Assembly (NCBI GenBank): GCA_041662585.1 | Contig: JBAZSG010000003.1 | Coordinates: 33,011-97,010 of the forward strand | Direction: 5' to 3' | Origin: Patescibacteria group bacterium | Lineage (GTDB): Bacteria; Patescibacteriota; Patescibacteriia; UBA1558; GWA2-36-10 | Length of the DNA: 64,000 nucleotides | In this document: positions 54 to 12,719 of the stretch, piece by piece | Position numbering within the stretch: position 1 is the stretch's first letter | Layout of the letters: each line of letters opens with the position of its first letter | Notes under the pieces: model-generated | The model's input: only the letters and a program-made list of their open reading frames with translations | The model's database searches: none | Told to the model about the DNA's origin: nothing | Made by a program: the position numbers and the translations under genes

Positions 54-1022
54 ATGATAGATTTTGTTAATGTTAGTTACGGCCCTATAGCTGCTTATGG
101 TAATAAAGATTATTGGTATTCTTTGTTGAATATGCAGTATTTGACTGATAGTATAGCTAAAAATATACTTGAAGATGATAAATGGTTGGATAAGGTAAGG
201 AAAAAATCCTTGGATAACTTTGAAAAGTTTAAGGAAAATTTTAATAGACAACTGAAGTTAGTAGAATCAAAACCAATAGATTTTTTAATTTGGGTTATAA
301 AAAATTATCCTGATTATTTTGCTAGTCTAGGTTTATATAATGGACTTTGGCGTTATATGGAATATAATAATAACAGCCAGAGAAATATGGCTGATGGCAG
401 TACTGACAAAATAGCTGATGAAAGAAGTCAAGTGGCGATACTTTATCCTTTGGTAGAAAAGTATCTCAAGAGTGCTATTAAATCGATGCTTTCGAGTCTT
501 AATTTGCCGAAAATAGATTATTTGTTATTAACTAGAGAAGAATTGCAAGATGTTTTGGAAAATAATATGGTAAATAAAGAATTACAAATCCTGATAAAGA
601 AAAGAAGTAAAGGTTATGTATATTTATACAAAGATAATATAGAGACCATTATTTTTGATAAAGATGTTTTGAATAAAGTCAAAGATTATGCTATTCCTAA
701 AGTAAAAAATTCAGACATTGTTTACGGCATAGCAGCCTATGGGGGGCTAGTTAAGGGTAAAGTAGTTTTGGATTTAAAAAACTTTGCATCTTATAAAGAG
801 CCAATTTATATTACAGCCATGACTCATCCAGATGAGGTTCCTTGGCTTAAAAAATGTTTAGCTATAGTAACTGATGAAGGAGGAGTATTGTCTCATGTAG
901 CAGTGATTGCCAGGGAATTTAAAATACCTGCGCTTATGGGTACTAAAGTAGCTACCCAAATATTTAAAGATGGCGATATGGTGGAGGTGGATGCTAATAA
1001 AGGGATTGTGAAGAAAATATGA
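54..1022 (+). CDS. PEP-utilizing-enzyme mobile (phosphohistidine swivel) domain protein, paralog 1; 5' end uncertain (frame open to window start)
   Basis: C-terminus ...IVTDEGGVLSHVAVIAREFKIPALMGTKVATQIFKDGDMVEVDANKGIVKKI matches the PEP-utilizers swivel domain (GGxTSHAAIxAREL in PpsA/PPDK/EI). The N-terminal part is unique. The stop overlaps the next start (ATGA). Confidence 0.6.
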   Translation: MIDFVNVSYGPIAAYGNKDYWYSLLNMQYLTDSIAKNILEDDKWLDKVRKKSLDNFEKFKENFNRQLKLVESKPIDFLIWVIKNYPDYFASLGLYNGLWRYMEYNNNSQRNMADGSTDKIADERSQVAILYPLVEKYLKSAIKSMLSSLNLPKIDYLLLTREELQDVLENNMVNKELQILIKKRSKGYVYLYKDNIETIIFDKDVLNKVKDYAIPKVKNSDIVYGIAAYGGLVKGKVVLDLKNFASYKEPIYITAMTHPDEVPWLKKCLAIVTDEGGVLSHVAVIAREFKIPALMGTKVATQIFKDGDMVEVDANKGIVKKI

Positions 1023-2035
1023 ATTTAGATTTTGATAAATCATTAAATTATGAAAGACACCAACGTGATTATTCTATTGTAGTCACTACCCTTGTGTTTA
1101 GAGGTTTGTACAATCAAAATGCCAAGTTTTTTGGTGTAGCTCCTACGGCTTGTTATCTAATAATTAAAAACGATGTTTTATATCATTATATGTCTAAGTA
1201 TGATGGTAAAAGGCGCATGGAAAATTGGCTTCAAAACAATAATATCAAATCTTTTAAAGATCAAGAAAAAATATATTCTGAAAAATTAGAAAAATTTAAT
1301 AAATTTTATAATCAGCAGCCAGATGATTTATTTTTAGCTTTAAAATTGAGCCACGATTTTTTTGTAGATTTCACAGAAATAATTTTATTGGGTTATGAAC
1401 TGCCTTTGTATATGAAAGATATTGCACCTAAAGAAATTATAGATTTTGCTTTTGCTATTAGGCATAAATACGAAGATGTTCACAAAAGAAATGTTGATAT
1501 AACACTAAAGATTTTAAATAAATTGGAAGAAAAGTATAAAATCGAGAAAAATACATTGTCTTATCTAACTATAGATGAGCTAGAAAAATTTTTAAAAACA
1601 GCCGAGTTGCCAGATATTGAAGATAGAAGAAAATATGTATTAATAAAATATGATGGTGATTATTCTTTTTTCTACGACCAAAAAACTTGGAATATTTTAA
1701 ACCCAAAAATAGCTAAAGAATTTGTCCGTGGTAGGACAGCTTTTAAGGGAAAAGTACAAGGCATAGTAAAAGTAATAAATAAGATAAAAGAGGCTGACGA
1801 TTTGAAAGAAGGAGAGATTTTAATTACCAGTATGACAGACCCTCGCTATGTACCAGCTATGAAAAGAGCCGGAGCTATTGTCACTGATGAAGGAGGTATT
1901 ACTTGTCATGCGGCTATAGTTTCTCGTGAGTTAAAAATTCCGTGTGTTATCGGCACAAAAGTTGCTACGGAGATTTTTAAAAATGGCGATATGGTCGAAG
2001 TCGATGCTAATAGTGGTATAGTTAGAAAAATATGA
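1019..2035 (+). CDS. PEP-utilizing-enzyme mobile domain protein, paralog 2 (unique N-terminal domain)
   Basis: C-terminus ...AIVTDEGGITCHAAIVSRELKIPCVIGTKVATEIFKNGDMVEVDANSGIVRKI. There is a 4-nt overlap with both neighbouring genes. Confidence 0.65.
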   Translation: MNLDFDKSLNYERHQRDYSIVVTTLVFRGLYNQNAKFFGVAPTACYLIIKNDVLYHYMSKYDGKRRMENWLQNNNIKSFKDQEKIYSEKLEKFNKFYNQQPDDLFLALKLSHDFFVDFTEIILLGYELPLYMKDIAPKEIIDFAFAIRHKYEDVHKRNVDITLKILNKLEEKYKIEKNTLSYLTIDELEKFLKTAELPDIEDRRKYVLIKYDGDYSFFYDQKTWNILNPKIAKEFVRGRTAFKGKVQGIVKVINKIKEADDLKEGEILITSMTDPRYVPAMKRAGAIVTDEGGITCHAAIVSRELKIPCVIGTKVATEIFKNGDMVEVDANSGIVRKI

Positions 2036-3438
2036 ATATTATGAAAGTAGATAAATATCAAAGAGTATTTGAAAATCAAAATGTAAGGCCATATTATTCT
2101 ATACCTCACAATCAAGGTTTTGGCGAGCCATTAAAAGAATTGGTTAACTATGAATATGATAGAGTAATATACGTGATTTCAGAATCATACGGTAATAAAG
2201 CATATATTCACGAAGATGAAATAAACAAAGGAGCTAATTATTTTTCTAAAATTTGGAAAGATTCAAAAAAGACTAAGGAGATTTTAGCCGAGATAAGAAA
2301 ACGTTTTTTAAATGCCAAAAAACTAGAATTCAATTTATGGAAAATAGATATAATAAATATCAAGGAAGAAAAATTGGTAAGTAAATTAAATAAAATACAA
2401 GACATGTTACTTAATATTTTAAGTGCTCATGTCATTAGCCAGCCACCTCATATAAAAAGTTTGGAAAAGGAGTTAAATAATAGCCTTGAAAAAATAAAAG
2501 ATGTTGATCAATCATTATTAATTAGATCTTTTACACATTTTGAGGGTGTTTTGCCACACGCAGAGGAAGAAAAAGAAATAGAAAAATATAATAAATTATG
2601 GTCAAATATAGACAGCGATAAGAGAGAGACTATATTAGAAGAGTTGGTAAAAAAATATGGTTGGATAAATGCTGTAGAGGGAGATAAACCATATTCTAAA
2701 GAACATTATAAAAATAAAATAGAAACATATAAAAAGTCTTCTGATATAGAATTGTTAGATTTGAGTAAGTATTCTGTACCGCAAGCAGTAAAAATTGGAA
2801 AACTAATTGGTGAATTAGGCTTTTTACGTTTTTGGTCTAGATTTCATATGTTGGCTCTACATTATCAAATGAAACGTATAGTAAAAGAATTAGCCATCAA
2901 AAAAGAAAATAATTTAATAAATTTAATGACCGTAAAAGAAATTACTAATTATATAAATGGAGATGAAATAAATCTTAAAGAGATAGAAAAAAGAAAGAAA
3001 GGTTATGTGGTTTATTTAAAAAATGGAAAAAGTCATTTAGTGTCTGGCCAAGAAACTGATAAATATATTAAACTTACCAAGGAAGATGAATTGTCTCAAA
3101 AACAGATATCTGGATTTGTAGCATGCAGAGGTTTAATAAAAGCTAAAGCTAGAATTATTGATTTTAATTCAAAAGATTATAATAAAGAAGTATCTCAGTT
3201 TAAAAAAGGAGAAATTCTAGTCACAGGTATGACCCGTCCACAAATTGTACATCTATGTAATAAAGCCTCAGCTATTGTAACTGATGAAGGAGGTATAACA
3301 AGCCATGCAGCGGTAGTCAGTAGAGAATTAAATATTCCTTGTGTAATAGGTACTAAAGATGCCACTAAAATTTTTAAAACGGGAGATTTTTTAGAAGTAG
3401 ATGCCAATAAAGGAATAATAACAAAGATTATTAATTAA
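2032..3438 (+). CDS. PEP-utilizing-enzyme mobile domain protein, paralog 3 (unique 380-aa N-terminal region)
   Basis: C-terminus ...AIVTDEGGITSHAAVVSRELNIPCVIGTKDATKIFKTGDFLEVDANKGIITKI. Confidence 0.65.
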   Translation: MNIMKVDKYQRVFENQNVRPYYSIPHNQGFGEPLKELVNYEYDRVIYVISESYGNKAYIHEDEINKGANYFSKIWKDSKKTKEILAEIRKRFLNAKKLEFNLWKIDIINIKEEKLVSKLNKIQDMLLNILSAHVISQPPHIKSLEKELNNSLEKIKDVDQSLLIRSFTHFEGVLPHAEEEKEIEKYNKLWSNIDSDKRETILEELVKKYGWINAVEGDKPYSKEHYKNKIETYKKSSDIELLDLSKYSVPQAVKIGKLIGELGFLRFWSRFHMLALHYQMKRIVKELAIKKENNLINLMTVKEITNYINGDEINLKEIEKRKKGYVVYLKNGKSHLVSGQETDKYIKLTKEDELSQKQISGFVACRGLIKAKARIIDFNSKDYNKEVSQFKKGEILVTGMTRPQIVHLCNKASAIVTDEGGITSHAAVVSRELNIPCVIGTKDATKIFKTGDFLEVDANKGIITKIIN

Positions 3439-3446
3439 TATAATTT

Positions 3447-4373
3447 ATGAGTGAAAAAGAAATGGAAATTATGCCTCAAGGGGGCATAGAAAAACAAAGC
3501 GAAAAGGAAAGAGGTCTAAATAATAGAATATTGCTTAAAATAATTCGTCATGGTGAAAAAACCCCCGAAGGTGCTTTAACTGATTATGGTAGAGAAAAAA
3601 CTAGAGAGACAGTAGCAAATGACAAAAAAATAATAGAAGGCATACAAAAAGTAAAAGTTATGGGTAGTAATGCTGGTCCTAAAAATGAAGCTGGACAAGC
3701 TAGAGCTTTGGAGACAGCTGATATTTATGCAAACACACTGGTTAATGAGGAATATTCTGATCCAGAAATAATAAAGTATGAATCTCGTGCTAGATCAATA
3801 TTGGAAGTGGTTGGTCAAAATACACAACCGCCTTTTAATTGGGGTAAGGAGTATAAAGAAAATTTACCTGAAAATTTTTCAGAATTATCTGATGAGGATA
3901 AAGCAATTGCATCAGCTGAAGCCAATGAAAAAAATCTGACAAAATTAATGACTATGCCCGAAGCAGAAGATTATCGTCAGGAAATATCAGCTAGGTATGC
4001 TATGTTTATAAATACCTATATCAAAATGATAGACCGTATAGAAAATGATCAAAAGATTATGTATCCAGTAGGGGCTCATGGTGGACAAATAGAATTGTTT
4101 TTACAAAAATGTTTAAAACGTAAAACAGAAGATGGTGATGAAATTATTGGTTTTAAGGATAGTAAAGAACTAGGAGGTTCTTTTAATCCTAGTGAAGGAT
4201 TTTTTATTGATATCACCACTGATCAAAATGGAGAAAAGAAAATAGAATTCAATTTTGATGATCCAAAAAGGTTTGAGGGTGAAGAATTGTCACTTGATTT
4301 AGATACTATGTATGAACTTATAGATAAATATAAAGAAAAGTATGGTTCTTTTTATGATAAACAAAACGATTAA
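3447..4373 (+). CDS. histidine phosphatase superfamily (phosphoglycerate-mutase-like) protein
   Basis: N-terminal LLKIIRHGEKTPEGALTDYGREKTRE carries the RHG catalytic motif. A later VGAHGG matches the second-His motif of the PGM-like fold. Confidence 0.5.
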   Translation: MSEKEMEIMPQGGIEKQSEKERGLNNRILLKIIRHGEKTPEGALTDYGREKTRETVANDKKIIEGIQKVKVMGSNAGPKNEAGQARALETADIYANTLVNEEYSDPEIIKYESRARSILEVVGQNTQPPFNWGKEYKENLPENFSELSDEDKAIASAEANEKNLTKLMTMPEAEDYRQEISARYAMFINTYIKMIDRIENDQKIMYPVGAHGGQIELFLQKCLKRKTEDGDEIIGFKDSKELGGSFNPSEGFFIDITTDQNGEKKIEFNFDDPKRFEGEELSLDLDTMYELIDKYKEKYGSFYDKQND

Positions 4374-4389
4374 TTATTATATAAATAAA

Positions 4390-4431
4390 ATAGAAGTAGA
4401 TGCCACAAAAGGTATAGTGAGGAAAGTATAA
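4390..4431 (+). pseudogene. orphan 3' relic of a PEP-utilizer swivel-domain paralog (..IEVDATKGIVRKV*)
   Basis: The in-frame translation of gaagtagatgccacaaaaggtatagtgaggaaagtataa is EVDATKGIVRKV-stop. That is nearly identical to the paralog C-termini VEVDANKGIVKKI and VEVDANSGIVRKI. A stop lies a few codons upstream. Confidence 0.55.
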
Positions 4432-4496
4432 AATAGGCATTAGACAATTTGGTTATTATTAGCTAAACTTTTAATATAATTATTTATATTTTAAAA

Positions 4497-5330
4497 ATGA
4501 AAATATTGATCATAGGCAAAGGCTATCTGGGTACTCGTTGTGCTGAGGCCTGGAAAAATGCTGTCATTAGCGACAAGATCGTAGTCACAGTCAAAGACGT
4601 GGAAGAGCTTATTGACCAACATCAGCCCGATGCTATTTTAAATGCGGCTGGTGTAGTGGGTAAACCAAATGTAGATTGGTGCGAAAACCATCAAATAGAA
4701 ACTATCAAAGGCAATACTATTTTGCCGTTGATTATAGCGGAAGCTTGTCAAAACAAGGGCGTTTATCTTTTACATATGGCCACCGGTTGTATTTTTTATG
4801 GACAGTCTCCTCACGGTGGTCCATGGACAGAAGAGGATTACGGCAATCCAACAGCGGTTTACACCAAATCAAAACTGGCGGCTGATTTAGCTCTGTCTAC
4901 TTTGCCCAATGTCGGTATTGCTCGTATTCGTATGCCTTTTGATAGCTGCTCTCATCCAGCTAATCTCATTGATAAGCTGGCTAAATATGAAAAAATAATT
5001 GATGTAGAAAATTCCATGACGGTAGTAGATGATATGATTGATGTTTTTTATCAATTACTTGAAAAGAAAGCTGAAGGGATATTTCATGTGACCAATCCAG
5101 GGTCCATCAAACACAAAGAAATAATGGAGCTTTACAAAAAATATGTAGATCCAAATCACAGAAATGAATGGATTACCGAAGAAGATTTGGTCAAGCTCGG
5201 GCTGGCCAATAAAAAAAGATCAAATAATATTATGACCTCTTTAAATCTGCCTAAATATGGTATTAAAATGCGGCCGATAAAAGAAGCCGTTGAAGAGGCT
5301 CTTAAAAAATACGCTAAAGGTAAAAAATAA
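4497..5330 (+). CDS. dTDP-4-dehydrorhamnose reductase-like (RmlD-family) sugar-nucleotide reductase
   Basis: MKILIIGKGYLGTRCAEAW Rossmann N-terminus, RmlD-like length and layout. GC is noticeably higher (~40-45%) than in the flanks. Confidence 0.5.
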   Translation: MKILIIGKGYLGTRCAEAWKNAVISDKIVVTVKDVEELIDQHQPDAILNAAGVVGKPNVDWCENHQIETIKGNTILPLIIAEACQNKGVYLLHMATGCIFYGQSPHGGPWTEEDYGNPTAVYTKSKLAADLALSTLPNVGIARIRMPFDSCSHPANLIDKLAKYEKIIDVENSMTVVDDMIDVFYQLLEKKAEGIFHVTNPGSIKHKEIMELYKKYVDPNHRNEWITEEDLVKLGLANKKRSNNIMTSLNLPKYGIKMRPIKEAVEEALKKYAKGKK

Positions 5331-5332
5331 TT

Positions 5333-6061
5333 ATGAGAGGAATAATTTTAGCCGGCGGAGCCGGTAATAGATTGAAACCCTTGACTAAAGTAACTTCTAA
5401 ACAGTTACTGCCTATTTATGATCAGCCGATGATCTATTATCCACTGCAGACTTTAATCAATGGCGGTATCCAAGATATTTTGGTGATTTCTGATCCTAAT
5501 AATATTGGCAATATTGTCCGGTTATTAGGTAGTGGTAAAGATTTTGGTGTCAGAATTCGCTATGAGGTCCAAGATAGTCCCGACGGTCTAGCTCAGGCAT
5601 TTTTGCTTGGTGAGATTTTTATCGGTGATGATGATGTAACTCTTATACTGGGCGACAATCTTTTTGTCGGCGATGGTAAATTTTTGGAGGAAGCGATTCG
5701 AAGTTTTAAGGGTGGTGGTCGGGTTTTTGCCAAGGAAGTGCCAGATCCAGAAAGATATGGTGTAGTAGATTTTGACAAAAAGGGGCAAGCCATTAGCATT
5801 GAAGAAAAACCAAAAAATCCCAAAAGTAATTATGCGGTCACTGGTTTATATATTTATGATAATGGTGTAATTGCCAAAGCCAAAAGTTTGAAACCTTCGG
5901 CTCGCGGAGAATTGGAAATTACCGATGTTAATAATCTTTACCTTAAAGAAGGAAGATTAGATGTCAGAATTTATAAAGATTATTGGCTAGACACCGGTAC
6001 TTTTGATGCTTTACTTGAAGCCGGAAATACTATTGCTAAATTGAGAAAAAATGCTAAATAA
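5333..6061 (+). CDS. glucose-1-phosphate thymidylyltransferase-like nucleotidyltransferase (RmlA family, short form)
   Basis: MRGIILAGGAGNRLKPLTKVTSKQLLPIYDQPMIYYPL is the canonical RmlA/RfbA N-terminus. Confidence 0.65.
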   Translation: MRGIILAGGAGNRLKPLTKVTSKQLLPIYDQPMIYYPLQTLINGGIQDILVISDPNNIGNIVRLLGSGKDFGVRIRYEVQDSPDGLAQAFLLGEIFIGDDDVTLILGDNLFVGDGKFLEEAIRSFKGGGRVFAKEVPDPERYGVVDFDKKGQAISIEEKPKNPKSNYAVTGLYIYDNGVIAKAKSLKPSARGELEITDVNNLYLKEGRLDVRIYKDYWLDTGTFDALLEAGNTIAKLRKNAK

Positions 6062-6063
6062 GT

Positions 6064-6833
6064 ATGAATTTTGAAAATGTTAATGCTAATCTAGAAAAAG
6101 AAAGTAAAGGTGAAAATGTAATTGTTCATTCTGTTTTTATTCGTCATGGAGAAAAATTTCATGATATAAATAATCCAGAAACAGAACTTACTCCTAAAGG
6201 GAGAGAGGCGAGTCGTGAAATTGGAAAAAATAGGCCGGAAGTTGATGCTATAAAAGGCTATAGTAGTGATACTCAAAGAACCCAAACTATGATCCAAATA
6301 ATGAATTTACCAAGAAATTGCAAGGGATAAAAGAAGAGTTGCTAGGAAAAGGATATGATGATTTATCAGAGAATCAAAAAGAAGCCAGGTTAGATGAATA
6401 CAACTCTGTTATTACTGATTGTTATTTAGCTTTGGGTGATCAGAGACCAGATCCAAATACTTATTCCCCAGTAGAAACAGCCGCTACTATGGCCAAGATA
6501 TTGGATAATAATATTAGGATGGCCGATAGATTAAAATCTAATTCAGAAGTTGATTTGGTCAATGCCACACATGATTTTAATATAGTAGCTTTCTTAAAGG
6601 AAGTCTTGGTAAGAAAAATAGATGATAAAAAAGTAGTTGGTTTTGATTCTGTTAAGGAAATAGGAGGAAGTATGGAATTTAATGGTGGTTTTGAAGTTTT
6701 AATAAAGACAGATAATGATGGGCACAAAACTCTAAAAATATTATTTAGAGGAGAAGAATACGAAATAGATGAGACAAGATTAACAGAATTAGTACAAATA
6801 GCCAAAGATTTAAAAAAGCAAGATGAAAAATAA
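6064..6833 (+). pseudogene. histidine phosphatase superfamily paralog, interrupted by a frameshift (ORFs 6064..6330 and 6318..6833)
   Basis: ORF1 has VFIRHGEKFHDINNPETELTPKGREASRE (RHG motif). ORF2 (KEIGGSMEFNGGFEVLIKTDNDGHKTLKILFRGEEYE, VNATHDFN) aligns to the C-terminal two-thirds of 3447..4373. The frame switch lies around 6300-6330. Confidence 0.5.
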
Positions 6834-6850
6834 TATAATAATTTATATAT

Positions 6851-7147
6851 ATGCCAAAATTAAATATAAAACCTTCAAGCAAGGCTAAGCTTAAGATTAA
6901 AAGGCCTATTAAAACAGAATCTAAGTTAGAAAAACTTAATAAAATATTAGATAGAGTACGTCCAGCACTAGAGCGAGATGGAGGCAATCTAGAGCTGATC
7001 AATTTTGATGAAAAAAATGGTTTAGTTGAAATTACATTTCAAGGTGCTTGCGCTCATTGTTCTTTGGCTGATGTTACATTAAAACATTTGATAGAATCTG
7101 AAATTAGAGCTCAAATGCCAGAAATAAAAGAAGTAAGATCTATATGA
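6851..7147 (+). CDS. NifU-like (Nfu-type) Fe-S cluster domain protein
   Basis: VRPALERDGGNLELINFDEKNGLVEITFQGACAHCSLADVTLKHLIESEI matches the NifU C-terminal / Nfu domain pattern (G-x-C-x-x-C ... TLK). The stop overlaps the start of the next gene. Confidence 0.6.
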   Translation: MPKLNIKPSSKAKLKIKRPIKTESKLEKLNKILDRVRPALERDGGNLELINFDEKNGLVEITFQGACAHCSLADVTLKHLIESEIRAQMPEIKEVRSI

Positions 7148-8502
7148 GTAGAAAGTATGATTTTATGTCAAAACCTTGGGTATATTCTATTTCTAGAAAT
7201 ATACATTTTTGGCACGATGAATTATCTATTAAATATAGTTATGCAGGTTGTAAGAAATTAAAATTACCTTCTTTTCATTATGCTCGGATTAATAATACAG
7301 GTCATGGAGATTTTTTTTATTTAGAAACAGGAGAGTATGGTAAGGATAAATTTAATAAAGCTTTAGAAGATAATTTTAAAGATAAAAAATATATTAATTT
7401 TTTAGAAAATTATTATATCAGTAATGGAGAAAAATTGGTTGAACATTCTAAAAAATTAAAATTAGATTATAAAGAATTTAAAGATTATTTTACAGAATAT
7501 GGAATAATGTGTCCTACTTTAGATGGTACTAACACAGGCAGTAAAATTATTACAGATTATTTATTAAATAAGTTATCTAGCTATCCTGATGCTACTGACA
7601 TTATTTCTTATTACTCTCAAATGCCTAAAAAAAGTCCCATGCAGAAGATGGATGAGGAGTTAGCTAAAGGCATTAAAAATAAAGTAGATAAAAAGAAATT
7701 AGCTAAAACATTATATAATAAGTATTGTTGGATACCAATTAGTTTTATTGGAGATCCTTGGGATTTAAAATATTTTGAAGATAAGATTAAAAAATATAGT
7801 CCAAATAAAGAACATAAATTATCTAAACCAAAAGTTCAAATAGCAGATAATTTAATGTATTACTTAAAATTATTAGGTAAAATAGCTTATTTAAATGAAT
7901 ATAGAAAATCTGTTTTTACTAGAGCCAATTATTATATTAGGCCGTTATTAGAAAAAATTGCTCAGGAGTATAATTTGGGTACTTGGAAAGAAATAAATCT
8001 TTTAGCTAGTAATGAGATATTAGATTTATTAGATGGTAAAGATGATTATCAAAAAAAATTGATAAAAGAGAGAAGAAAGGACTGGTTAATGTATGCGGTT
8101 GGTCGAGAGGGTATTGATTATGTCCATGGAAAGTTGGTAAAAGATTTTAGAAATAAATTTATGCCAAAAGCGAATGGTTTAAATTATGTTTCAGGTACAA
8201 TTGCCAATAAAGGTAAGGTCAGAGGTGTAGTAAAAATTATATATGAACCAAAAGATTTTAATAAGTTTAAGAAAGGGGATATATTAGTAGCTAAGATGAC
8301 CTCTATTGATTTTATACCAATAATGAAGCGTGCGGCAGCTTTTGTTACTAACGAAGGGGGTTTAGCATGTCATGCAGCTATAGTTTCTCGTGAATTAAAC
8401 ATCCCCTGTATAATAGGAGCTAAGATAGCTACCGAAGTTTTTAAAGACGGTGACAGAGTAGAAGTAGATGCTAATAGAGGTATAGTTAAGAAGATAAAAT
8501 AA
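7144..8502 (+). CDS. PEP-utilizing-enzyme mobile domain protein, paralog 4 (unique N-terminal domain)
   Basis: C-terminus ...AAFVTNEGGLACHAAIVSRELNIPCIIGAKIATEVFKDGDRVEVDANRGIVKKIK. Confidence 0.65.
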   Translation: MSRKYDFMSKPWVYSISRNIHFWHDELSIKYSYAGCKKLKLPSFHYARINNTGHGDFFYLETGEYGKDKFNKALEDNFKDKKYINFLENYYISNGEKLVEHSKKLKLDYKEFKDYFTEYGIMCPTLDGTNTGSKIITDYLLNKLSSYPDATDIISYYSQMPKKSPMQKMDEELAKGIKNKVDKKKLAKTLYNKYCWIPISFIGDPWDLKYFEDKIKKYSPNKEHKLSKPKVQIADNLMYYLKLLGKIAYLNEYRKSVFTRANYYIRPLLEKIAQEYNLGTWKEINLLASNEILDLLDGKDDYQKKLIKERRKDWLMYAVGREGIDYVHGKLVKDFRNKFMPKANGLNYVSGTIANKGKVRGVVKIIYEPKDFNKFKKGDILVAKMTSIDFIPIMKRAAAFVTNEGGLACHAAIVSRELNIPCIIGAKIATEVFKDGDRVEVDANRGIVKKIK

Positions 8503-8520
8503 TTTTAGACAAACGGAAAA

Positions 8521-8573
8521 GCGGCGACACGTTGTGTGTGTCGCCGCTTTGTTGTTAGTCCGTTGAGCGGACT
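8521..8573. terminator. pair of GC-rich hairpins (gcggcgacac..gtgtcgccgc and agtccgttgagcggact) acting as a bidirectional terminator
   Basis: Perfect inverted repeats, followed by a T-rich run on either strand. Confidence 0.55.
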
Positions 8574-9147
8574 ACTCTTCAATCCAGACGGCATCGATAC
8601 TGCCGTCGTCGTATAGGCGGAAGCGAATCGCTTCCATGGCATCGAGGCTGTGAGCATCGGTCATGCCGAGACACTTGGCCAGCATGGGGATGGTGGGATC
8701 GTGGAAGATCCCGACACCGTGCTGACCCGAATCCATCAGGTCGAACATCTGCTTGAGAGCATTGCGGGCTCCAATGTTGAAGTCAACGAGTACCTGCCGG
8801 TCGATGTTTACGAGCACGGCCTCCATATTGGAGAGGCCACCCTTGATGTCGGCCCGGACATGGTCGGTGATGATAGTGGCGAACAGTTCGCTACTACCGA
8901 GACCGTGGATCGGGTCATGCATCTTCACATGAGTGAAGGCCTGATTGGCTGTCATCATGGCGATGGCGGTTTCGCAGGTGCGGGCGAGAGGCCCCCAGAA
9001 GAGATGGTGAATATTCATGTTGCCTTCGTCGTAGCGCTCCGAGCCTATTTCGTAGGCGTAGGTGGCTCCGTCATAGGAGACATGATTGCCACCGGTATCT
9101 TTGTGCGTGTGGCGATACAAGTCTACGGTTTTGGTTATCTGGGCCAT
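8572..9147 (-). CDS. GC-rich histidine phosphatase superfamily-like protein (start placed at MAQITK..)
   Basis: Strong GC3 codon periodicity. The SD AGGGAGG lies 6 nt upstream of the ATG at 9147. DLYRHTHKD and later WGPLARTCETA resemble the RHG and S-x-L-x-RA-x-QTA motifs of the PGM/SixA fold. The ORF track's longer start at 9213 has no RBS. Confidence 0.45.
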   Translation of the reverse strand: MAQITKTVDLYRHTHKDTGGNHVSYDGATYAYEIGSERYDEGNMNIHHLFWGPLARTCETAIAMMTANQAFTHVKMHDPIHGLGSSELFATIITDHVRADIKGGLSNMEAVLVNIDRQVLVDFNIGARNALKQMFDLMDSGQHGVGIFHDPTIPMLAKCLGMTDAHSLDAMEAIRFRLYDDGSIDAVWIEE

Positions 9148-9222
9148 TTTGGGCCTCCCTGTTTTGGGTTTTGTATGGTACGCCCCTAAATATAGGGGAT
9201 TCTTGTATTTCAAGAATATATT

Positions 9223-9251
9223 AGTATAGCATATTTTTTATTTAATGTCAA
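9223..9251 (-). promoter_or_regulatory. sigma70-like promoter TTGACA-N17-(TGc)TATACT for 8572..9147
   Basis: The reverse complement reads ttgacattaaataaaaaatatgctatact, with an extended -10 TGn. Confidence 0.5.
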
Positions 9252-9292
9252 TATATATAATATATATTATATAGTAAAAAATACTATAAACA

Positions 9293-9321
9293 TTGACATT
9301 TATACTATATCATGCTAGACT
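9293..9321 (+). promoter_or_regulatory. sigma70-like promoter TTGACA-N17-(TGc)TAGACT for 9341..11149
   Basis: cattgacatttatactatatcatgctagact sits 20 nt before the ATG and is divergent from the minus-strand promoter. Confidence 0.45.
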
Positions 9322-9340: not shown

Positions 9341-11149
9341 ATGTTGGATAAAATTATAAATTCAAAAACTCGTCTAGCTATCTTGTCTTTATTTTTTAAA
9401 AATCAAGACAAAGAATTTTATGCTGGAGAGATTATCAAACAAAGCAATATGGATGCAGCTAATGTCCATAAAGAATTAAAAAATTTGGTAGCTGGTAAAT
9501 TTGTATTGCAAGAAGATAAATCAAGTAGAAAATATTTTTCTTTAAATAAAGATAATATTTTTTATAATGGTTTGGATAAGGTATTTAGTCAATATAAAGT
9601 ATCCATATCTGGAGATGTGTGGTTTTCTTTGGAATCAATGCCAAATTATTATCCTATGGTGGTGGCTTTTACTTGGAATGTAAAACGAGCCAATGATTTT
9701 TTACAAAGCCGTGGCTATAAAAATAAATTTACCAAACTACTCACTACCTATAACAATAATATCAATGATTTGCTTTTGATTAAAAAAGAATTTGACGACT
9801 TATCACAAGAAACTTTAGATAAGATTAATTCTGATCCAGATTGGGGGCATAGATATGTTGATGATTTATCACAAGCCATCCCTAAGTTGGTTAAAGCCAC
9901 TAAAGATTTGGAAAAAGTAAATTTGGGCAAATTATCCAATGAAGAATTATATAATTTATATCAGGAGTATTATGATGCTTATGGACGTCTTCATAGATTT
10001 CACTGGGTACAAACCATCGCTGATTTTGGTGACAATTTGTTTTCTAAATATCTAATGAATTATTTGCGTCATAAGGTCAAAGATAGCCAATATTCTTTGG
10101 GAGAAGTCTTTTCTACTTTGACAACTCCGATAGAAGACGGTCAAGCCGCTAAAGAGTATCAAAATTTATTAGGTATCTTAAAAAATATAATAGCTGATGA
10201 AAATCTAAAACAATATTTTAAAGATACCGAAACTCGTATTATTTACAGAGATTTAAAAAATGTTAATAAGGTTGTTGATGAACAAATTTCTGAACATACT
10301 GGGCTCTATGGTTATCTTGGTTATGGTATGGCCGGCCCTGGTTGGGGTAAAGACTATTTTATTGATATTTTAGGATCTTTGGTCAGACAGAATACCAATC
10401 CTAGTGAATTATTGGATAATTTACAAAAAGACAAAATAAACATTGAAGCCAAACAGCAGAAATTTATTAAACAACTAGAGGTAGATGAAAAACATCAGCA
10501 ATTGTTTGAAGTAGCTAGAGGTTTGGTTTTTACCAAAGGTACTCGCAAGGAATCTATGTTTTACAGTTATAGTGTTATAGAAAATTTGTTTAGAGAAATT
10601 GGTCGCCGTTATTATTTATCGGTCAATCAGGTGAGATATTTTTATCCCCATGAATTTGAAGATTTATTGCTTCACAATAAATTTAGTGCGGCTAAACTAA
10701 ATGAGCGTTATAAATTTAGTTTGCAATATTCAGTAGGTGATTATCATCAAGATAAATTATTAGAAGGTGAAGAAGCTAGAAAATTTTTAGAAAATTTTAA
10801 TATTGTCAAAGAGGAAATCGTTGATATTAAAGTAATGGAAGGAGATTGTGCTTCTCCTGGTCGAGCTCGTGGTAGTGCAAAAATTATCAATATTCCCAAA
10901 GATATGAGTAAAATGGAACAAGGCGATGTGCTTATATCTATCGCCACTACTCCGGATTTAGTACCAGCTATTAAAAAGGCTAGTGCTATTGTCACTGACG
11001 TCGGAGGTATTACTTGTCATGCTGCCATTGTTTCTCGTGAATTGGGCATTCCTTGTGTTATTGGTACTAAAATCGCTACCAAAGCCTTAAAAGATGGTGA
11101 TGTAGTAGATGTAGATGCTACGCATGGTAAAGTTACGATTGTCCGGTAG
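9341..11149 (+). CDS. winged-helix (ArsR/MarR-like) DNA-binding domain fused to a PEP-utilizing-enzyme mobile domain, paralog 5
   Basis: N-terminus KTRLAILSLFFKNQDKEFYAGEIIKQSNMDAANVHKELKNLVAGKFV is a wHTH pattern. C-terminus ...ASAIVTDVGGITCHAAIVSRELGIPCVIGTKIATKALKDGDVVDVDATHGKVTIVR. Confidence 0.6.
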   Translation: MLDKIINSKTRLAILSLFFKNQDKEFYAGEIIKQSNMDAANVHKELKNLVAGKFVLQEDKSSRKYFSLNKDNIFYNGLDKVFSQYKVSISGDVWFSLESMPNYYPMVVAFTWNVKRANDFLQSRGYKNKFTKLLTTYNNNINDLLLIKKEFDDLSQETLDKINSDPDWGHRYVDDLSQAIPKLVKATKDLEKVNLGKLSNEELYNLYQEYYDAYGRLHRFHWVQTIADFGDNLFSKYLMNYLRHKVKDSQYSLGEVFSTLTTPIEDGQAAKEYQNLLGILKNIIADENLKQYFKDTETRIIYRDLKNVNKVVDEQISEHTGLYGYLGYGMAGPGWGKDYFIDILGSLVRQNTNPSELLDNLQKDKINIEAKQQKFIKQLEVDEKHQQLFEVARGLVFTKGTRKESMFYSYSVIENLFREIGRRYYLSVNQVRYFYPHEFEDLLLHNKFSAAKLNERYKFSLQYSVGDYHQDKLLEGEEARKFLENFNIVKEEIVDIKVMEGDCASPGRARGSAKIINIPKDMSKMEQGDVLISIATTPDLVPAIKKASAIVTDVGGITCHAAIVSRELGIPCVIGTKIATKALKDGDVVDVDATHGKVTIVR

Positions 11150-11215
11150 ACAAAAGGTCCATTGGACTTTTTGTTTTAAGCATACTAAAATTAAGATAAA
11201 TATTAATTTATTACT

Positions 11216-12154
11216 ATGGAATTAGTCAGAGATTTTAAAAAAATAGATAAAAATCATGTCGCTTTGGCTGGAGGTAAGGGGGCATCTTTAGGAGAAATGA
11301 CCAAAGCGGGTATTCCTGTACCACCTGGTTTTGTGGTTTTATCTGGAGCTTTTGACAGATTTTTAGAAGAAACAGATTTGAATGTAGAAATAGAAGCTAT
11401 TTTAAAAACAGTTAAACATGAAGATGTTAATTCTGTGGAAAAGTCTTCTTTAAAAATAAGAGATTTAATTGCTGATGCTAAGATGCCAGAGGATATTGCC
11501 AAAGAAATTAAAGTATCTTTTAAAAAGCTTGATGCTAAATATGTAGCTGTGCGTTCTTCTGCTACAGCTGAGGATTCATCTATTGCATCTTGGGCCGGAG
11601 AATTGGAGTCATATCTTAATACCACAGATAAAGATTTGCTTGATAATGTCAAAAAATGTTGGTCATCACTTTTTACACCTCGGGCAATTTTTTATCGTTT
11701 TGAAAAAAAATTACATAACACTAAGGTATCTGTAGCTGTGGTAGTACAAGCAATGGTGCAGTCACAAGTGAGTGGTATTGTTTTTACTGTTCATCCAGTC
11801 ACAGAAGATCAGAAACAGATGATTATTGAAGCTGGTTGGGGATTGGGTGAAGCTATTGTTTCAGGTATGGTTACTCCCGATGCTTATGTTATAGATAAAA
11901 CAGATTTTTCTATTGTGGATATCAATATTTCAGATCAAGCCAAATACATTATCAAAACTAACAAAGGCAACAAATTTACAGATGTGCCTAGTGATAAACG
12001 TGAAGAGCAAAAATTGTCTGGTGCTCAGATTGTAGAGCTAGCCAAAATTTGTGTGGATATTGAAAAACACTACGGCTTTCCTTGTGATATAGAATGGGCT
12101 ATGGAAAAAAATAAATTTTATATTACCCAGTCCAGACCAATCACCACTTTATAA
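11216..12154 (+). CDS. free-standing PEP synthase / pyruvate phosphate dikinase N-terminal ATP-grasp (PPDK_N) domain protein
   Basis: VALAGGKGASLGEMTKAGIPVPPGFVVLSGAF matches the PpsA N-terminus (GGKGANLGEL..GxxVPxGF). Only 312 aa, with no swivel and no PEP-binding domain. Confidence 0.7.
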   Translation: MELVRDFKKIDKNHVALAGGKGASLGEMTKAGIPVPPGFVVLSGAFDRFLEETDLNVEIEAILKTVKHEDVNSVEKSSLKIRDLIADAKMPEDIAKEIKVSFKKLDAKYVAVRSSATAEDSSIASWAGELESYLNTTDKDLLDNVKKCWSSLFTPRAIFYRFEKKLHNTKVSVAVVVQAMVQSQVSGIVFTVHPVTEDQKQMIIEAGWGLGEAIVSGMVTPDAYVIDKTDFSIVDINISDQAKYIIKTNKGNKFTDVPSDKREEQKLSGAQIVELAKICVDIEKHYGFPCDIEWAMEKNKFYITQSRPITTL

Positions 12155-12221: not shown

Positions 12222-12719
12222 TTATACCTCGGTTTCGCCGAGTTGGTCGAGAATCGACCAGCCGATTTCACCGTTTTCGTCGATGGTGATCTCGATGACT
12301 GAGCCGCTTTTGGCGGCTTCTATACCCAGAGACTTGGCAAATGGTCTGCCGGTGCATAGCACAGCCCCATCGGGCAGAGACTCCAGGAAAGCAGGAATGG
12401 CGGGCGCCATATCAGCGATGCCGGTGTAGGCATCATAGGCACAGTGGTTGCCGTCGGCAAAGACGATGGTCGGCTGACCATCGATCATGTCGAGCGACGT
12501 GGCGTCACCCAGAAGCAGAGTTGAGCGGGTCATGGTCAGACCCAGTGTGGCAGCAACGTGCCGATGTCGGCGACCAGTGCCGCATATTACAGCCGCAGGA
12601 TTTTCAGGGAGGAGTCCCTTGAGGGACTCAATCTGATTTACTCCTTTGAGAGTCATCAGGGGGTCAGCCCCATCGCTCTTGTCGCCGTGCAATACGGCGA
12701 AAAATTGATTGACTTTCAC
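12222..12719 (-). CDS. GC-rich SixA-like (phosphohistidine phosphatase-type) histidine phosphatase family protein, GTG start
   Basis: GC3-rich codons. FFAVLHGDKSDGADPLMTLKG ... VICGTGRRHRHVAATLGL has the same layout as SixA (IMRHGDA...RPLT.NG ... VLVSPFLRAEQT), but with L in place of the catalytic R. Confidence 0.4.
   Translation of the reverse strand: MKVNQFFAVLHGDKSDGADPLMTLKGVNQIESLKGLLPENPAAVICGTGRRHRHVAATLGLTMTRSTLLLGDATSLDMIDGQPTIVFADGNHCAYDAYTGIADMAPAIPAFLESLPDGAVLCTGRPFAKSLGIEAAKSGSVIEITIDENGEIGWSILDQLGETEV

What the first reader, a model, noticed from the sequence alone, without database searches (positions are those of the whole stretch)
9341..11149. DNA-binding winged-helix domain fused to a phosphohistidine swivel domain
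Paralog 5 begins with an ArsR/MarR-like wHTH and ends with the swivel His domain. The architecture suggests a transcription factor whose activity is set by His phosphorylation from the ATP-grasp module. An alternative is that it recruits the phosphotransfer machinery to DNA. I do not know of a described regulator with this fusion.
Basis: inference. Interest (0 to 1): 0.55.

Follow-up and report, generated by a model that had tools for sequence, protein, structure and literature searches.

The report
DNA-binding dikinase subunit that regulates itself
This gene from an uncultured ultra-small (CPR) bacterium fuses a DNA-binding domain to one half of a split ATP-driven phosphate-transfer enzyme. 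Conserved palindromes at its own promoter suggest the enzyme subunit also switches its own operon on and off, an arrangement not found described for this enzyme class.

Summary
ORF 9341-11149 (602 aa) starts with an ArsR/SmtB-like winged helix (res 1-90) and ends with a phosphohistidine swivel domain (res 491-602, catalytic His560).

It is homologous to the substrate-binding domain of rifampin phosphotransferase (RPH). The protein is therefore the HpeH/PpsA-like subunit of a two-component small-molecule dikinase. Its ATP-grasp partner lies 66 nt downstream (11216-12154).

The transcription-factor reading has comparative support:
- A 7-N5-7 dyad (9270-9288) sits 4 nt upstream of the -35 box, and a third half-site lies in the promoter spacer.
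- The dyad recurs at the same position in 16 orthologous loci.
- Its arms co-vary with each other and with the recognition helix.
- It is missing where the winged helix is missing.
- Two other winged-helix paralog types in related genomes each carry their own dyads.

Control by His phosphorylation is untested.

Best reading: a bifunctional catalytic subunit and autorepressor of the operon that supplies the shared ATP-grasp subunit. I rate it a new variant of a known kind, found only in CPR/DPANN metagenomes. No paper in the searched library describes it.

The parts
9341..11149 (+). CDS, 602 aa: wHTH, RPH-like substrate domain and phosphohistidine swivel ('type-605' family)
   Evidence: ORF list and translation. 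About 70 full-length homologs at 39-80% identity. AF2 model pLDDT 91.4.
9341..9610 (+). ArsR/SmtB-like winged helix-turn-helix, res 1-90. Recognition helix res 39-51 (D38-A-A-N-V-H-K-E-L), wing strands 55-68, C-terminal helix 75-90.
   Evidence: D38, N41, E45, L46 and L49 are invariant. No Cys and a single His, so no ArsR-type metal site (sequence).
9617..10810 (+). Helical substrate-binding domain (res 93-490), homologous to the rifampin-binding domain of RPH and to HpeH/PpsA. Invariant K399, R402 and K403.
   Evidence: Profile against PDB: res 269-601 align to RPH-Lm 535-878, E 1e-24. Foldseek whole model against 5fbu, E 1.6e-14, TMq 0.51. K399 and K403 align to RPH R666 and K670 (residue roles from PMC4844700).
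10811..11146 (+). Phosphohistidine swivel domain (res 491-602). Catalytic His560 codon at 11018-11020, in GGITCHAAIVSRE.
   Evidence: PF00391 E 4e-23. 8a8e PEP synthase swivel E 7e-39. Translation of 11003-11035. H560 invariant.
9270..9288 (.). Perfect 7-N5-7 dyad TATAGTAaaaaaTACTATA, the candidate operator, 4 nt upstream of the -35 box
   Evidence: The only 0-mismatch site in the window. Same position in 16 orthologous loci. Strict core GTA-N5-TAC found in 16 of 23 upstreams against 1.6% of background windows, p 3e-24. Arm covariation.
9293..9321 (+). Sigma-70-type promoter: TTGACA (9293-9298), 17-nt spacer, TGcTAGACT (-10 at 9316-9321). The spacer holds a third half-site TACTATA at 9303-9309.
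   Evidence: Promoter scan. Sequence. The third half-site matches the locus's own dyad arm at 5.9/7 on average, against 5.1/7 for other loci's arms; 0 of 5000 permutations reach the observed value.
11216..12154 (+). Stand-alone ATP-grasp subunit (PPDK_N, 312 aa), the HpeI/PpsB-like partner. It is the only ATP-grasp found near the five swivel paralogs of the window.
   Evidence: PF01326 E 1e-100, full length. Similar to the N-terminal domains of PEP synthase and RPH. Directly downstream of the type-605 gene in 13 loci.
8572..9147 (-). Divergently transcribed GC-rich gene (191 aa) with a histidine-phosphatase (PGAM-like) fold. Possible phosphatase partner.
   Evidence: No Pfam or PDB sequence hit. 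AF2 pLDDT 80. All top Foldseek hits are histidine phosphatases (PGAM, CobC, TIGAR, RosC, PGAM5), E about 1e-5. R12, R56 and H149 invariant. Homologs lie next to wHTH genes in L003, L082, L086 and L089.
9223..9251 (-). Divergent promoter (TTGACA-17-TATACT) for the phosphatase-like gene. Its -35 box lies 18 nt from the dyad.
   Evidence: Promoter scan, 11/12 match.
54..8502 (+). Span holding the four other swivel-domain paralogs (54-1022, 1019-2035, 2032-3438, 7144-8502). None has a wHTH, and each has a different or reduced N-terminal domain. They presumably use the same ATP-grasp subunit.
   Evidence: BLASTP and Pfam. hhalign: 7144-8502 aligns to res 155-601 of the family, the others only to res ~430-600.

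Best explanation
The ORF encodes the substrate-binding and phosphocarrier subunit of a split (two-component) RPH/HpeH-type ATP-dependent dikinase. Through its N-terminal ArsR-like winged helix it is also the sequence-specific autoregulator of its own two-gene operon.

Enzyme half (inferred by homology with PpsAB, HpeHI and RPH). The ATP-grasp protein encoded 66 nt downstream binds ATP. His560 on the swivel domain takes the beta-phosphate. The domain then swings to the helical domain (res 93-490) and passes the phosphate to an unknown small-molecule acceptor held near K399, R402 and K403.

Regulator half (inferred from comparative cis-elements). A dimer places two winged helices on the TATAGTA-N5-TACTATA dyad that abuts the -35 box. 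A further contact falls on the TACTATA half-site inside the -35/-10 spacer. This occludes RNA polymerase and represses the gene and the downstream ATP-grasp gene.

Release (speculative). The state of the enzyme triggers release, through acceptor bound in the pocket and/or the phosphorylation or docking state of the swivel domain. The ATP-consuming system would then be made only when there is something to phosphorylate. Because the ATP-grasp gene is single and the other four swivel paralogs lack one, this promoter would gate the whole multi-paralog system.
For: Architecture (shown).

Split-dikinase context (shown):
- A full-length PPDK_N gene follows 66 nt downstream.
- The same pairing is seen in 13 loci. 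In L002 the two genes overlap by 4 nt.
- Single-chain relatives (P0114, P0082) carry the ATP-grasp where the target has the wHTH.
- The mechanism of the family is published for HpeHI and PpsAB (PMC12167813) and for RPH (PMC4844700).

Operator (comparative, strong):
- The dyad lies 4-5 nt upstream of TTGACA in 16 orthologous loci.
- The strict core occurs in 16 of 23 upstreams against a 1.6% background, p 3e-24.
- 88% of arm positions are complementary. Double changes occur at positions 2/18 and 4/16, reached by 1 of 500 shuffles.
- The third half-site tracks the locus's own arm; 0 of 5000 permutations reach the observed match.
- All 16 loci with recognition helix AN(V/I/A)HKEL have the dyad. 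None of the 4 loci with ANTHREL, SNAHREL or GGAHREL has it at that position.
- Natural wHTH-less orthologs (L101, L105) lack both the 80-110 nt intergenic promoter and the dyad.
- Within each 6-22 kb locus the dyad is essentially unique to this promoter.
- Two other wHTH-fused paralog types have different recognition helices and their own dyads in their own promoters. Type-626 has two TTGYYH-N3-DRRCAA dyads at -40 and -19 in 9 of 12 loci and at least one in 12 of 12, against 14 of 1912 background windows. Type-577 has an inverted repeat with 16-20 nt arms in 4 of 6 loci; the search did not recover it in the other two.
Against: - No experiment exists. DNA binding, kinase activity, the acceptor and the sign of regulation are all inferred.
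- The target's own wHTH is below the Pfam threshold.
- The loci are phylogenetically related, so the counts overstate the number of independent events.
- A dyad abutting the -35 box could also serve an activator.
- Another regulator could bind the dyads.
- RPH Glu667 has no clear equivalent in the profile alignment, where G400 aligns to it. Catalytic competence of the middle domain is therefore not proven.
- The AF2 output gives no coordinates or PAE. I could not check that the recognition helix is solvent-exposed in the full-length protein.
Confidence: 0.6

Rival explanations
1. The protein is primarily a transcription factor, and its DNA binding is switched by phosphorylation of His560 by the ATP-grasp protein. 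The middle domain serves only as a sensor or drain: when the acceptor is present the phosphate is passed on. The His~P level would then report acceptor availability, as in PTS/PRD regulators.
For: - His560 and the surrounding PEP-synthase-like GGxTCH motif are invariant or nearly so.
- The ATP-grasp gene is co-transcribed.
- A histidine-phosphatase-fold gene is transcribed divergently from the same control region.
- The operator evidence fits this model as well as it fits the best explanation.
Against: - Nothing here links phospho-His to the wHTH.
- wHTH-less orthologs keep the whole middle and swivel part unchanged. That part therefore has a function of its own, most simply catalysis.
- In characterised relatives the His is a catalytic carrier (PMC12167813, PMC4844700).
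- This model is not exclusive of the best explanation. It is a more specific claim about the signal.
Confidence: 0.25
2. The winged helix does not bind DNA. It acts as a dimerisation or docking module, for example for the ATP-grasp subunit, taking the place of the covalently linked ATP-grasp of single-chain relatives. The promoter dyads would be bound by some other regulator.
For: - The wHTH occupies the N-terminal position held by the ATP-grasp domain in single-chain relatives.
- HpeH dimerises and binds HpeI only transiently (PMC12167813).
- The target's HTH score is sub-threshold.
Against: - The recognition helix is the most conserved part of the domain.
- Its sequence variants track the presence and sequence of the dyad.
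- Three paralog types each have their own dyads at their own promoters.
- Loss of the wHTH coincides with loss of the dyad.
- The four wHTH-less paralogs in the window would need the ATP-grasp subunit just as much.
Confidence: 0.1
3. The protein tethers the phosphotransfer machinery to DNA in order to phosphorylate a DNA-associated target or the DNA itself.
For: Only the co-occurrence of a DNA-binding fold and a phosphocarrier in one chain.
Against: - The only perfect site in 64 kb lies at its own promoter, and near matches occur at chance level.
- The site is unique per locus in relatives.
- The middle domain is a small-molecule-type pocket domain homologous to those of RPH and HpeH.
Confidence: 0.03

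Closest known systems
Two-component small-molecule dikinases: HpeHI (Rhodococcus), CreHI (Corynebacterium), phenylphosphate synthase PpsAB (Thauera). Source: PMC12167813.
   Same: - The architecture is split. One subunit carries the RPH-like substrate domain and a C-terminal swivel with T/SxxGGxxxH. A separate ATP-grasp subunit is encoded next to it.
- His560 corresponds to HpeH His581 and PpsA His560.
- The expected chemistry is ATP + acceptor -> AMP + Pi + acceptor-phosphate, through a (pyro)phospho-His intermediate.
   Different: - An N-terminal ArsR-like wHTH and promoter dyads are present. The HpeHI paper mentions no DNA-binding domain in HpeH, CreH or PpsA.
- Sequence similarity to NCBIfam PRK08296 models, the ~600-aa swivel-ended family I take from my own knowledge (not checked) to include PpsA, is confined to the swivel.
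- The swivel motif is PEP-synthase-like (GGITCH, with the Thr that is regulatory in PEP synthase) rather than Met-containing.
- The acceptor is unknown and there is no aromatic-catabolism context.
- Five to ten substrate-subunit paralogs share a single ATP-grasp gene.
Rifampin phosphotransferase RPH-Lm (PDB 5FBS/5FBT/5FBU, 5HV1; PMC4844700)
   Same: It is the best structural match for the whole model (Foldseek E 1.6e-14) and the best profile match beyond the swivel (res 269-601 against 535-878, E 1e-24). Invariant K399 and K403 align with R666 and K670 of the second active site.
   Different: - RPH is a single chain with an N-terminal ATP-grasp. Here that position is taken by a wHTH and the ATP-grasp is a separate gene.
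- Identity is about 14-15%.
- No equivalent of Glu667 was identified.
- There is no evidence for rifamycin as substrate.
ArsR/SmtB-family winged-helix repressors (HlyU 4K2E/3JTH, E. coli 3CUO, SrnR 7P6F)
   Same: - The fold and topology match: three helices, a recognition helix, a beta-wing and a C-terminal helix (TM 0.7, rmsd ~2.1 A).
- A short dyad operator overlaps its own promoter, the classical autoregulated layout (own knowledge).
   Different: - There is no alpha3N (CxC) or alpha5 metal site: no Cys and one His in res 1-90.
- The domain is fused to a 510-aa enzyme body instead of standing alone.
- The target scores below the Pfam thresholds.
Bifunctional enzyme-repressors: ArsRM (ArsR fused to the ArsM methyltransferase, PMC10190100). 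From my own knowledge also BirA, NadR, PutA and archaeal RbkR.
   Same: The logic is the same. A wHTH is fused to an enzyme, so that the enzyme's ligand or catalytic state controls transcription of its own pathway.
   Different: The enzyme folds are unrelated. None of these uses a swivelling phosphohistidine domain or a separately encoded ATP-grasp partner.
PTS-controlled PRD regulators (LicT/BglG, MtlR, LevR; own knowledge)
   Same: His phosphorylation that is drained when substrate is present sets the regulator's activity. The swivel domain here is homologous to that of PTS Enzyme I.
   Different: There is no PRD, HPr or EII domain here. The phosphodonor is ATP through an ATP-grasp subunit, not PEP. 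Control of DNA binding by His~P is not shown.

Membership tests
Two-component small-molecule dikinase (HpeHI/CreHI/PpsAB type) | A subunit combining an RPH-like substrate-binding domain with a C-terminal phosphohistidine swivel domain | tested here: met
   Profile against PDB, Foldseek, PF00391.
Two-component small-molecule dikinase (HpeHI/CreHI/PpsAB type) | A separate ATP-grasp (PPDK_N) subunit encoded adjacent | tested here: met
   11216-12154, PF01326 E 1e-100. Conserved adjacency in 13 loci.
Two-component small-molecule dikinase (HpeHI/CreHI/PpsAB type) | Conserved T/SxxGGxxxH motif with the catalytic His | tested here: met
   T552-D-V-G-G-I-T-C-H560. H560, G555 and G556 are invariant. 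Motif definition from PMC12167813.
Two-component small-molecule dikinase (HpeHI/CreHI/PpsAB type) | Phosphotransfer-site residues of the substrate domain (RPH R666, E667, K670) | tested here: inconclusive
   Invariant K399 and K403 align to R666 and K670, and R402 is also invariant. E667 aligns to G400. The register of a helix in a 15%-identity alignment is uncertain.
Two-component small-molecule dikinase (HpeHI/CreHI/PpsAB type) | ATP-dependent phosphorylation of a small-molecule acceptor, yielding AMP and Pi | not testable with these tools
   Needs biochemistry. The acceptor is unknown.
ArsR/SmtB-type winged-helix transcription regulator | wHTH fold with recognition helix, beta-wing and C-terminal helix | tested here: met
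   AF2. Foldseek TM 0.70-0.72 to HlyU and 3cuo.
ArsR/SmtB-type winged-helix transcription regulator | Sequence membership (Pfam HTH_5 or HTH_20 above the gathering score) | tested here: inconclusive
   Target HTH_20 scores 17.9 against 27. Orthologs P0014 (HTH_5 26.8 against 22) and P0075 (HTH_IclR 24.6 against 22) pass.
ArsR/SmtB-type winged-helix transcription regulator | A dyad-symmetric operator at a regulated (its own) promoter | tested here: met
   Comparative only. Binding itself is not shown.
ArsR/SmtB-type winged-helix transcription regulator | Metal or metalloid sensing site (alpha3N Cys pair or alpha5 His/Asp/Glu cluster) | tested here: not met
   No Cys and a single His (H43) in res 1-90. 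It is therefore not a classical metal-sensing ArsR. Any effector must act through the fused enzyme body.
PEP synthase / pyruvate phosphate dikinase (the name given by some sources to homologs) | ATP-grasp domain in the same chain, and a C-terminal PEP/pyruvate-binding TIM barrel (PF02896) | tested here: not met
   Only the swivel region matches PEP synthase models (res 494-598, 128 bits against a cutoff of 598). There is no PF01326 or PF02896 hit in the ORF. The 'PEP synthase' label is wrong.
Rifampin phosphotransferase (RPH) | Single chain of ATP-grasp, rifampin-binding domain and swivel, scoring above the NCBIfam RIF_Ptrans_rph cutoff | tested here: not met
   63 bits against a cutoff of 999, swivel region only. 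The ATP-grasp is a separate gene.

The most novel reading that the evidence does not exclude
The swivel phosphohistidine is both a catalytic carrier and the regulatory signal. When the acceptor metabolite is absent, His560~P (or the swivel docked away from the substrate domain) keeps the wHTH dimer on its operator. When the acceptor is present, the phosphate is drained and the operon is induced. This operon includes the single ATP-grasp gene that feeds all five paralogous acceptor subunits. It would be a previously undescribed one-protein phosphorelay, an ATP-driven analogue of PTS/PRD control. In ultra-small CPR/DPANN cells it would gate a multi-substrate dikinase battery, possibly one that traps scavenged metabolites by phosphorylating them, with the divergently transcribed histidine-phosphatase-fold protein as the reset enzyme.
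Probability: 0.25. Interest if true: 0.8.

Novelty: new variant of a known kind. Interest (0 to 1): 0.6.

Why it matters
Two-component RPH-like dikinases were recognised as a subfamily only in 2025. So far they are known from aromatic catabolism, antibiotic inactivation and prodiginine synthesis.

This variant matters for three reasons.
1. It carries its own DNA-binding domain together with an identifiable operator. That gives a directly testable handle (EMSA or a reporter, with or without ATP, the ATP-grasp subunit and candidate metabolites). The same assay could be used to find the unknown acceptor substrates, because the effector of the repressor should be the enzyme's substrate or state.
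2. It sits at the control point of a striking and apparently undescribed feature of CPR bacteria and DPANN archaea. These genomes carry tandem batteries of 5-10 or more swivel-domain paralogs served by one ATP-grasp gene. That is a large investment for cells with genomes of about 1 Mb (genome size from my own knowledge).
3. If His~P controls DNA binding, this would be a new signalling architecture.

Tried and rejected
- Metal-sensing ArsR: rejected. There is no Cys or His cluster in res 1-90.
- RiPP recognition element (PqqD-like wHTH) for a peptide substrate: considered and rejected. The topology is helix-helix-helix-strand-strand-helix, and the best matches are ArsR/SmtB regulators, not beta-first RRE folds.
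- Anti-phage defence system: PADLOC hits only the generic wHTH (PDC-M05A and the Csa3 wHTH). The other eight proteins scanned, including the ATP-grasp and the four paralogs, give nothing.
- RNA element in the 840-nt region upstream of the gene: no Rfam family and no tRNA in the window. The region turned out to hold a minus-strand protein gene.
- A wider regulon: dyad matches with 2-3 mismatches occur at chance level in the window, 14 found against 10.6 expected.
- Similarity between the two GC-rich minus-strand genes flanking the operon: none.
- AFDB Foldseek: the library was not available.
- Literature searches for the fusion, or for CPR/DPANN swivel arrays, returned nothing relevant.
- I could not obtain model coordinates or PAE. 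Domain packing and exposure of the recognition helix remain unchecked.
Full report
OBSERVATION

ORF 9341-11149 (+) is an intact 602-aa reading frame.

Its C-terminus is an unambiguous phosphohistidine swivel domain. PF00391 matches res 526-596 at E 4e-23. The profile match to the PEP synthase 8a8e swivel is E 7e-39. The motif reads G555-G-I-T-C-H560-A-A-I-V-S-R-E, and His560 is invariant in 43 aligned homologs.

The N-terminal HTH is weak in the target alone: HTH_20 at E 0.003, below threshold. Four other lines establish it.
- Orthologs exceed the Pfam gathering scores. P0014 scores 26.8 against 22 for HTH_5, and P0075 scores 24.6 against 22 for HTH_IclR.
- Res 4-83 hit a winged-helix model in PADLOC at E 1.3e-11.
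- An AlphaFold2 model built on 43 sequences (pLDDT 91.4, pTM 0.81) shows helices 9-20, 28-35 and 39-51, a beta-hairpin at 55-68 and helix 75-90.
- Foldseek superposes this unit on the ArsR/SmtB regulators 3cuo and HlyU at TM 0.70-0.72 and rmsd ~2.1 A.

Residues 93-490 form a large helical domain. The family profile aligns res 269-601 to Listeria rifampin phosphotransferase (RPH-Lm) residues 535-878, E 1e-24. The whole model's best PDB matches are the six RPH-Lm entries (E 1.6e-14 to 2e-12, TMq up to 0.52).

In RPH this region is the rifampin-binding domain. Its Arg666, Glu667 and Lys670 carry out the second phosphotransfer (PMC4844700). In the alignment, the family's invariant K399 and K403 fall on R666 and K670, and R402 is also invariant. 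Glu667 has no clear counterpart.

Immediately downstream, after 66 nt, gene 11216-12154 encodes a full-length stand-alone ATP-grasp domain (PF01326, E 1e-100).

This is the layout of the 'two-component small-molecule dikinases' HpeHI, CreHI and PpsAB defined in 2025. [quoted passage not shown] The His is the carrier between two distant active sites (PMC12167813).

Some sources label homologs 'PEP synthase'. That label fails its membership test: there is no ATP-grasp and no PEP/pyruvate barrel in this chain.

CONTEXT

The window comes from a Patescibacteria (CPR) genome.
- A neighbouring protein is 100% identical to an NCBI 'Patescibacteria group bacterium' MAG protein.
- The closest genome locus is Candidatus Komeilibacteria. 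It is 80% identical at the protein level and syntenic.

The window holds five swivel paralogs (54-1022, 1019-2035, 2032-3438, 7144-8502 and the target). I found only one ATP-grasp gene among the ORFs scanned in the first 20 kb. Related CPR and DPANN loci carry up to ten or more tandem swivel genes with a single ATP-grasp gene.

Only the target has a wHTH in this window. Related genomes have up to three wHTH-fused paralog types (about 577, 605 and 626 aa), sometimes consecutively, as in L087.

A search of 1.84 billion cluster representatives with res 1-350 found 456 relatives at E<=1e-3. Among the best 150, 25 are ~600-aa proteins matched from residue 7 or earlier, so they carry the wHTH. Most of the rest are ~500-aa proteins matched from residue ~90-150, so they lack it. 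One full-length ortholog lies on a contig binned as Micrarchaeota (L005, 40% identity).

IS THE wHTH A DNA-BINDING REGULATOR?

The comparative evidence is strong.

Position and recurrence. Upstream of the target, a perfect dyad TATAGTAaaaaaTACTATA (9270-9288) lies 4 nt from a good promoter: TTGACA at 9293-9298, a 17-nt spacer, then TGcTAGACT with the -10 at 9316-9321. A third TACTATA lies at 9303-9309 inside the spacer. It is the only perfect copy in 64 kb. In 16 orthologous loci the same 7-N5-7 dyad sits 4-5 nt upstream of TTGACA. The strict core GTA-N5-TAC occurs in 16 of 23 upstreams, against 1.6% of 100-nt background windows (p 3e-24; shuffles average 0.5).

Internal covariation. The arms are 88% complementary and co-vary: TATAGTA/TACTATA, TGTTGTA/AACAACA, TTTGGTA/TACCAAG. 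There are 9 double-change cells, a value reached by 1 of 500 shuffles. Versions of the structure with the 3' partner slid by 1-3 columns drop to 22-66% pairing. The spacer half-site matches its own locus's arm better than the arms of other loci, 5.9 against 5.1 of 7. None of 5000 permutations reaches this, and only one register works.

Covariation with the protein. All 16 loci whose recognition helix reads AN(V/I/A)HKEL have the dyad. The ANIHKEL pair has the ACAACA variant. The four loci with ANTHREL, SNAHREL or GGAHREL do not have it at that position.

Correlated loss. Natural orthologs without the wHTH (L101, L105) start directly at the substrate domain. They are packed 4-13 nt behind the preceding gene and have neither the promoter nor the dyad.

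Other paralog types.
- Type-626 (recognition helix ANVSREL) has two tandem TTGYYH-N3-DRRCAA dyads at -40 and -19 from the ATG. Both are present in 9 of 12 loci and at least one in all 12, against 14 of 1912 background windows.
- Type-577 (ANIQREL) has an inverted repeat with 16-20 nt arms over its -10 region in 4 of 6 loci. My repeat search did not recover it in the other two, L086 and L089.

Paralog-specific operators at each paralog's own promoter are the signature of autoregulated transcription factors.

Caveats. The loci are related by descent. Nothing has been shown biochemically.

MECHANISM

Shown:
- the three-domain architecture;
- the adjacent ATP-grasp gene;
- the conserved catalytic His;
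- the conserved promoter dyads.

Inferred by homology: ATP-grasp-bound ATP (pyro)phosphorylates His560. The swivel domain then carries the phosphate to the helical domain, where an unknown acceptor is phosphorylated (PMC12167813, PMC4844700).

Inferred from the cis-elements: a dimer binds the dyad and the spacer half-site and occludes the promoter. HpeH itself is partly dimeric (PMC12167813). Binding would repress the gene and the co-directional ATP-grasp gene.

The ATP-grasp gene lies directly behind a type-605 gene in 13 loci and behind another wHTH type in two more. The regulator therefore controls supply of the one subunit that all paralogs need.

Speculative: the inducing signal is acceptor binding and/or the phospho or docking state of the swivel domain. 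A design that represses an ATP-hydrolysing system until an acceptor is present makes sense.

A possibly relevant neighbour is the GC-rich gene 8572-9147 (-). Its promoter (9251-9223) diverges from the same control region. It has no sequence-level annotation. It is predicted with moderate confidence (pLDDT 80) to have a histidine-phosphatase fold, and all top Foldseek hits are PGAM, CobC, TIGAR, RosC or PGAM5. R12, R56 and H149 are invariant. Homologs sit beside wHTH genes in other loci. It could reset the product or the phospho-His.

COMPARISON AND NOVELTY

In function and descent this is a member of the two-component dikinase group. Three structural criteria are met, one is inconclusive, and activity is untestable here. 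Its regulatory head is ArsR/SmtB-like but lacks the metal sites.

Enzyme-repressor fusions are a known concept. ArsRM is described in PMC10190100. BirA, NadR, PutA and RbkR are examples from my own knowledge. His-phosphorylation control of regulators is known from PTS/PRD proteins (own knowledge).

A wHTH fused to a swivelling phosphohistidine dikinase subunit, with paralog-specific operators, was not found in any paper searched. The same holds for the CPR/DPANN batteries of such subunits around a single ATP-grasp gene.

I rate it a new variant of a known kind, with interest 0.6.

Noticed in passing
window 54-8502 and 9341-12154; loci L001, L015, L023, L031, L043, L046, L054: CPR bacteria and DPANN archaea carry tandem batteries of 5 to more than 10 paralogous genes of the form 'variable N-domain plus swivel', usually with one stand-alone ATP-grasp gene per locus. 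That is a large share of a small genome, and no paper searched describes it. The N-domains range from a full RPH-like domain to unrelated short ones.
   Followed up: partly
L085, L086, L087, L089, L092, L093, L096, L097, L106 (types 577 and 626; not present in the window): Two further wHTH-fused swivel paralog families have different recognition helices (ANIQREL, ANVSREL) and their own conserved dyads in their own promoters or 5' leaders.
   Followed up: yes
window 8572-9147 (-): A GC-rich (~50% by eye from the sequence, against ~31% for the window) 191-aa gene with no Pfam or PDB sequence hit. It is predicted to have a histidine-phosphatase (PGAM-like) fold with invariant R12, R56 and H149, and is transcribed divergently from the target. 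Only 6 homologs turned up in 5.8 billion proteins.
   Followed up: partly
window 9199-9217: A second 7-N5-7 dyad, ATTCTTGtatttCAAGAAT, lies at the predicted transcription start of the minus-strand phosphatase-like gene. In L003 both arms change together (ATCCTTG...CAAGGAT), so the symmetry is kept. It could be another operator or a 5'-leader hairpin. A GC hairpin CCCCTAAATATAGGGG lies next to it at 9183-9198.
   Followed up: no
window 12222-12719 (-), promoter 12795-12767: A second GC-rich minus-strand ORF (165 aa) converges on the ATP-grasp gene. It has a perfect consensus promoter (TTGACA-17-TATAAT with TG). It has no family or PDB match and no similarity to the 8572-9147 protein.
   Followed up: partly
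window 6064-6330 and 6318-6833: A histidine-phosphatase-family gene (His_Phos_1) next to rmlA and rmlD is split into two overlapping frames here. In the Komeilibacteria relative it is one 280-aa ORF (L003 7995-8837). This is a frameshift: either a pseudogene or an assembly error.
   Followed up: partly
window 7144-8502 against L003 ~9134-9151: The 452-aa swivel paralog after the NifU-like gene is absent from the otherwise syntenic Komeilibacteria locus, which has a different set of upstream paralogs. The paralog battery turns over quickly between close relatives.
   Followed up: no
L039 851-12136; proteins P0113, P0120, P0147: A Woesearchaeota locus has a 3761-aa ORF that starts with an ATP-grasp domain and contains swivel and RPH-like segments. 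Other metagenomic proteins of 1000-1500 aa show multiple matched stretches; P0113 and P0120 carry 2-3 swivel domains, while P0147 was not scanned against Pfam. The battery also seems to exist as fused multi-unit chains.
   Followed up: no
L041 3304-3840; L104 687-1004; L060 10812-12545: Stand-alone or split versions of the wHTH occur. A 178-aa wHTH protein lies inside a Woesearchaeota swivel array. In L104 and L060 the wHTH and the rest of the protein are in separate adjacent ORFs, through gene fission, frameshift or sequencing error.
   Followed up: no
L001, L085, L096, L097, L092, L093 and L106, between the -10 box and the ATG of type-605 genes: Many orthologs, though not the window, carry an extra inverted repeat in the short 5' leader. 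Its sequence differs between loci but its symmetry is kept, for example AAGATTGATTAA...TTAATCAATCTT in L001. It could be a second operator or an RNA hairpin.
   Followed up: no
window 8518-8550: A strong 15-bp GC-rich hairpin followed by a T-run lies between the 7144-8502 paralog and the convergent minus-strand gene. It is conserved in L003 and is likely a bidirectional terminator.
   Followed up: no
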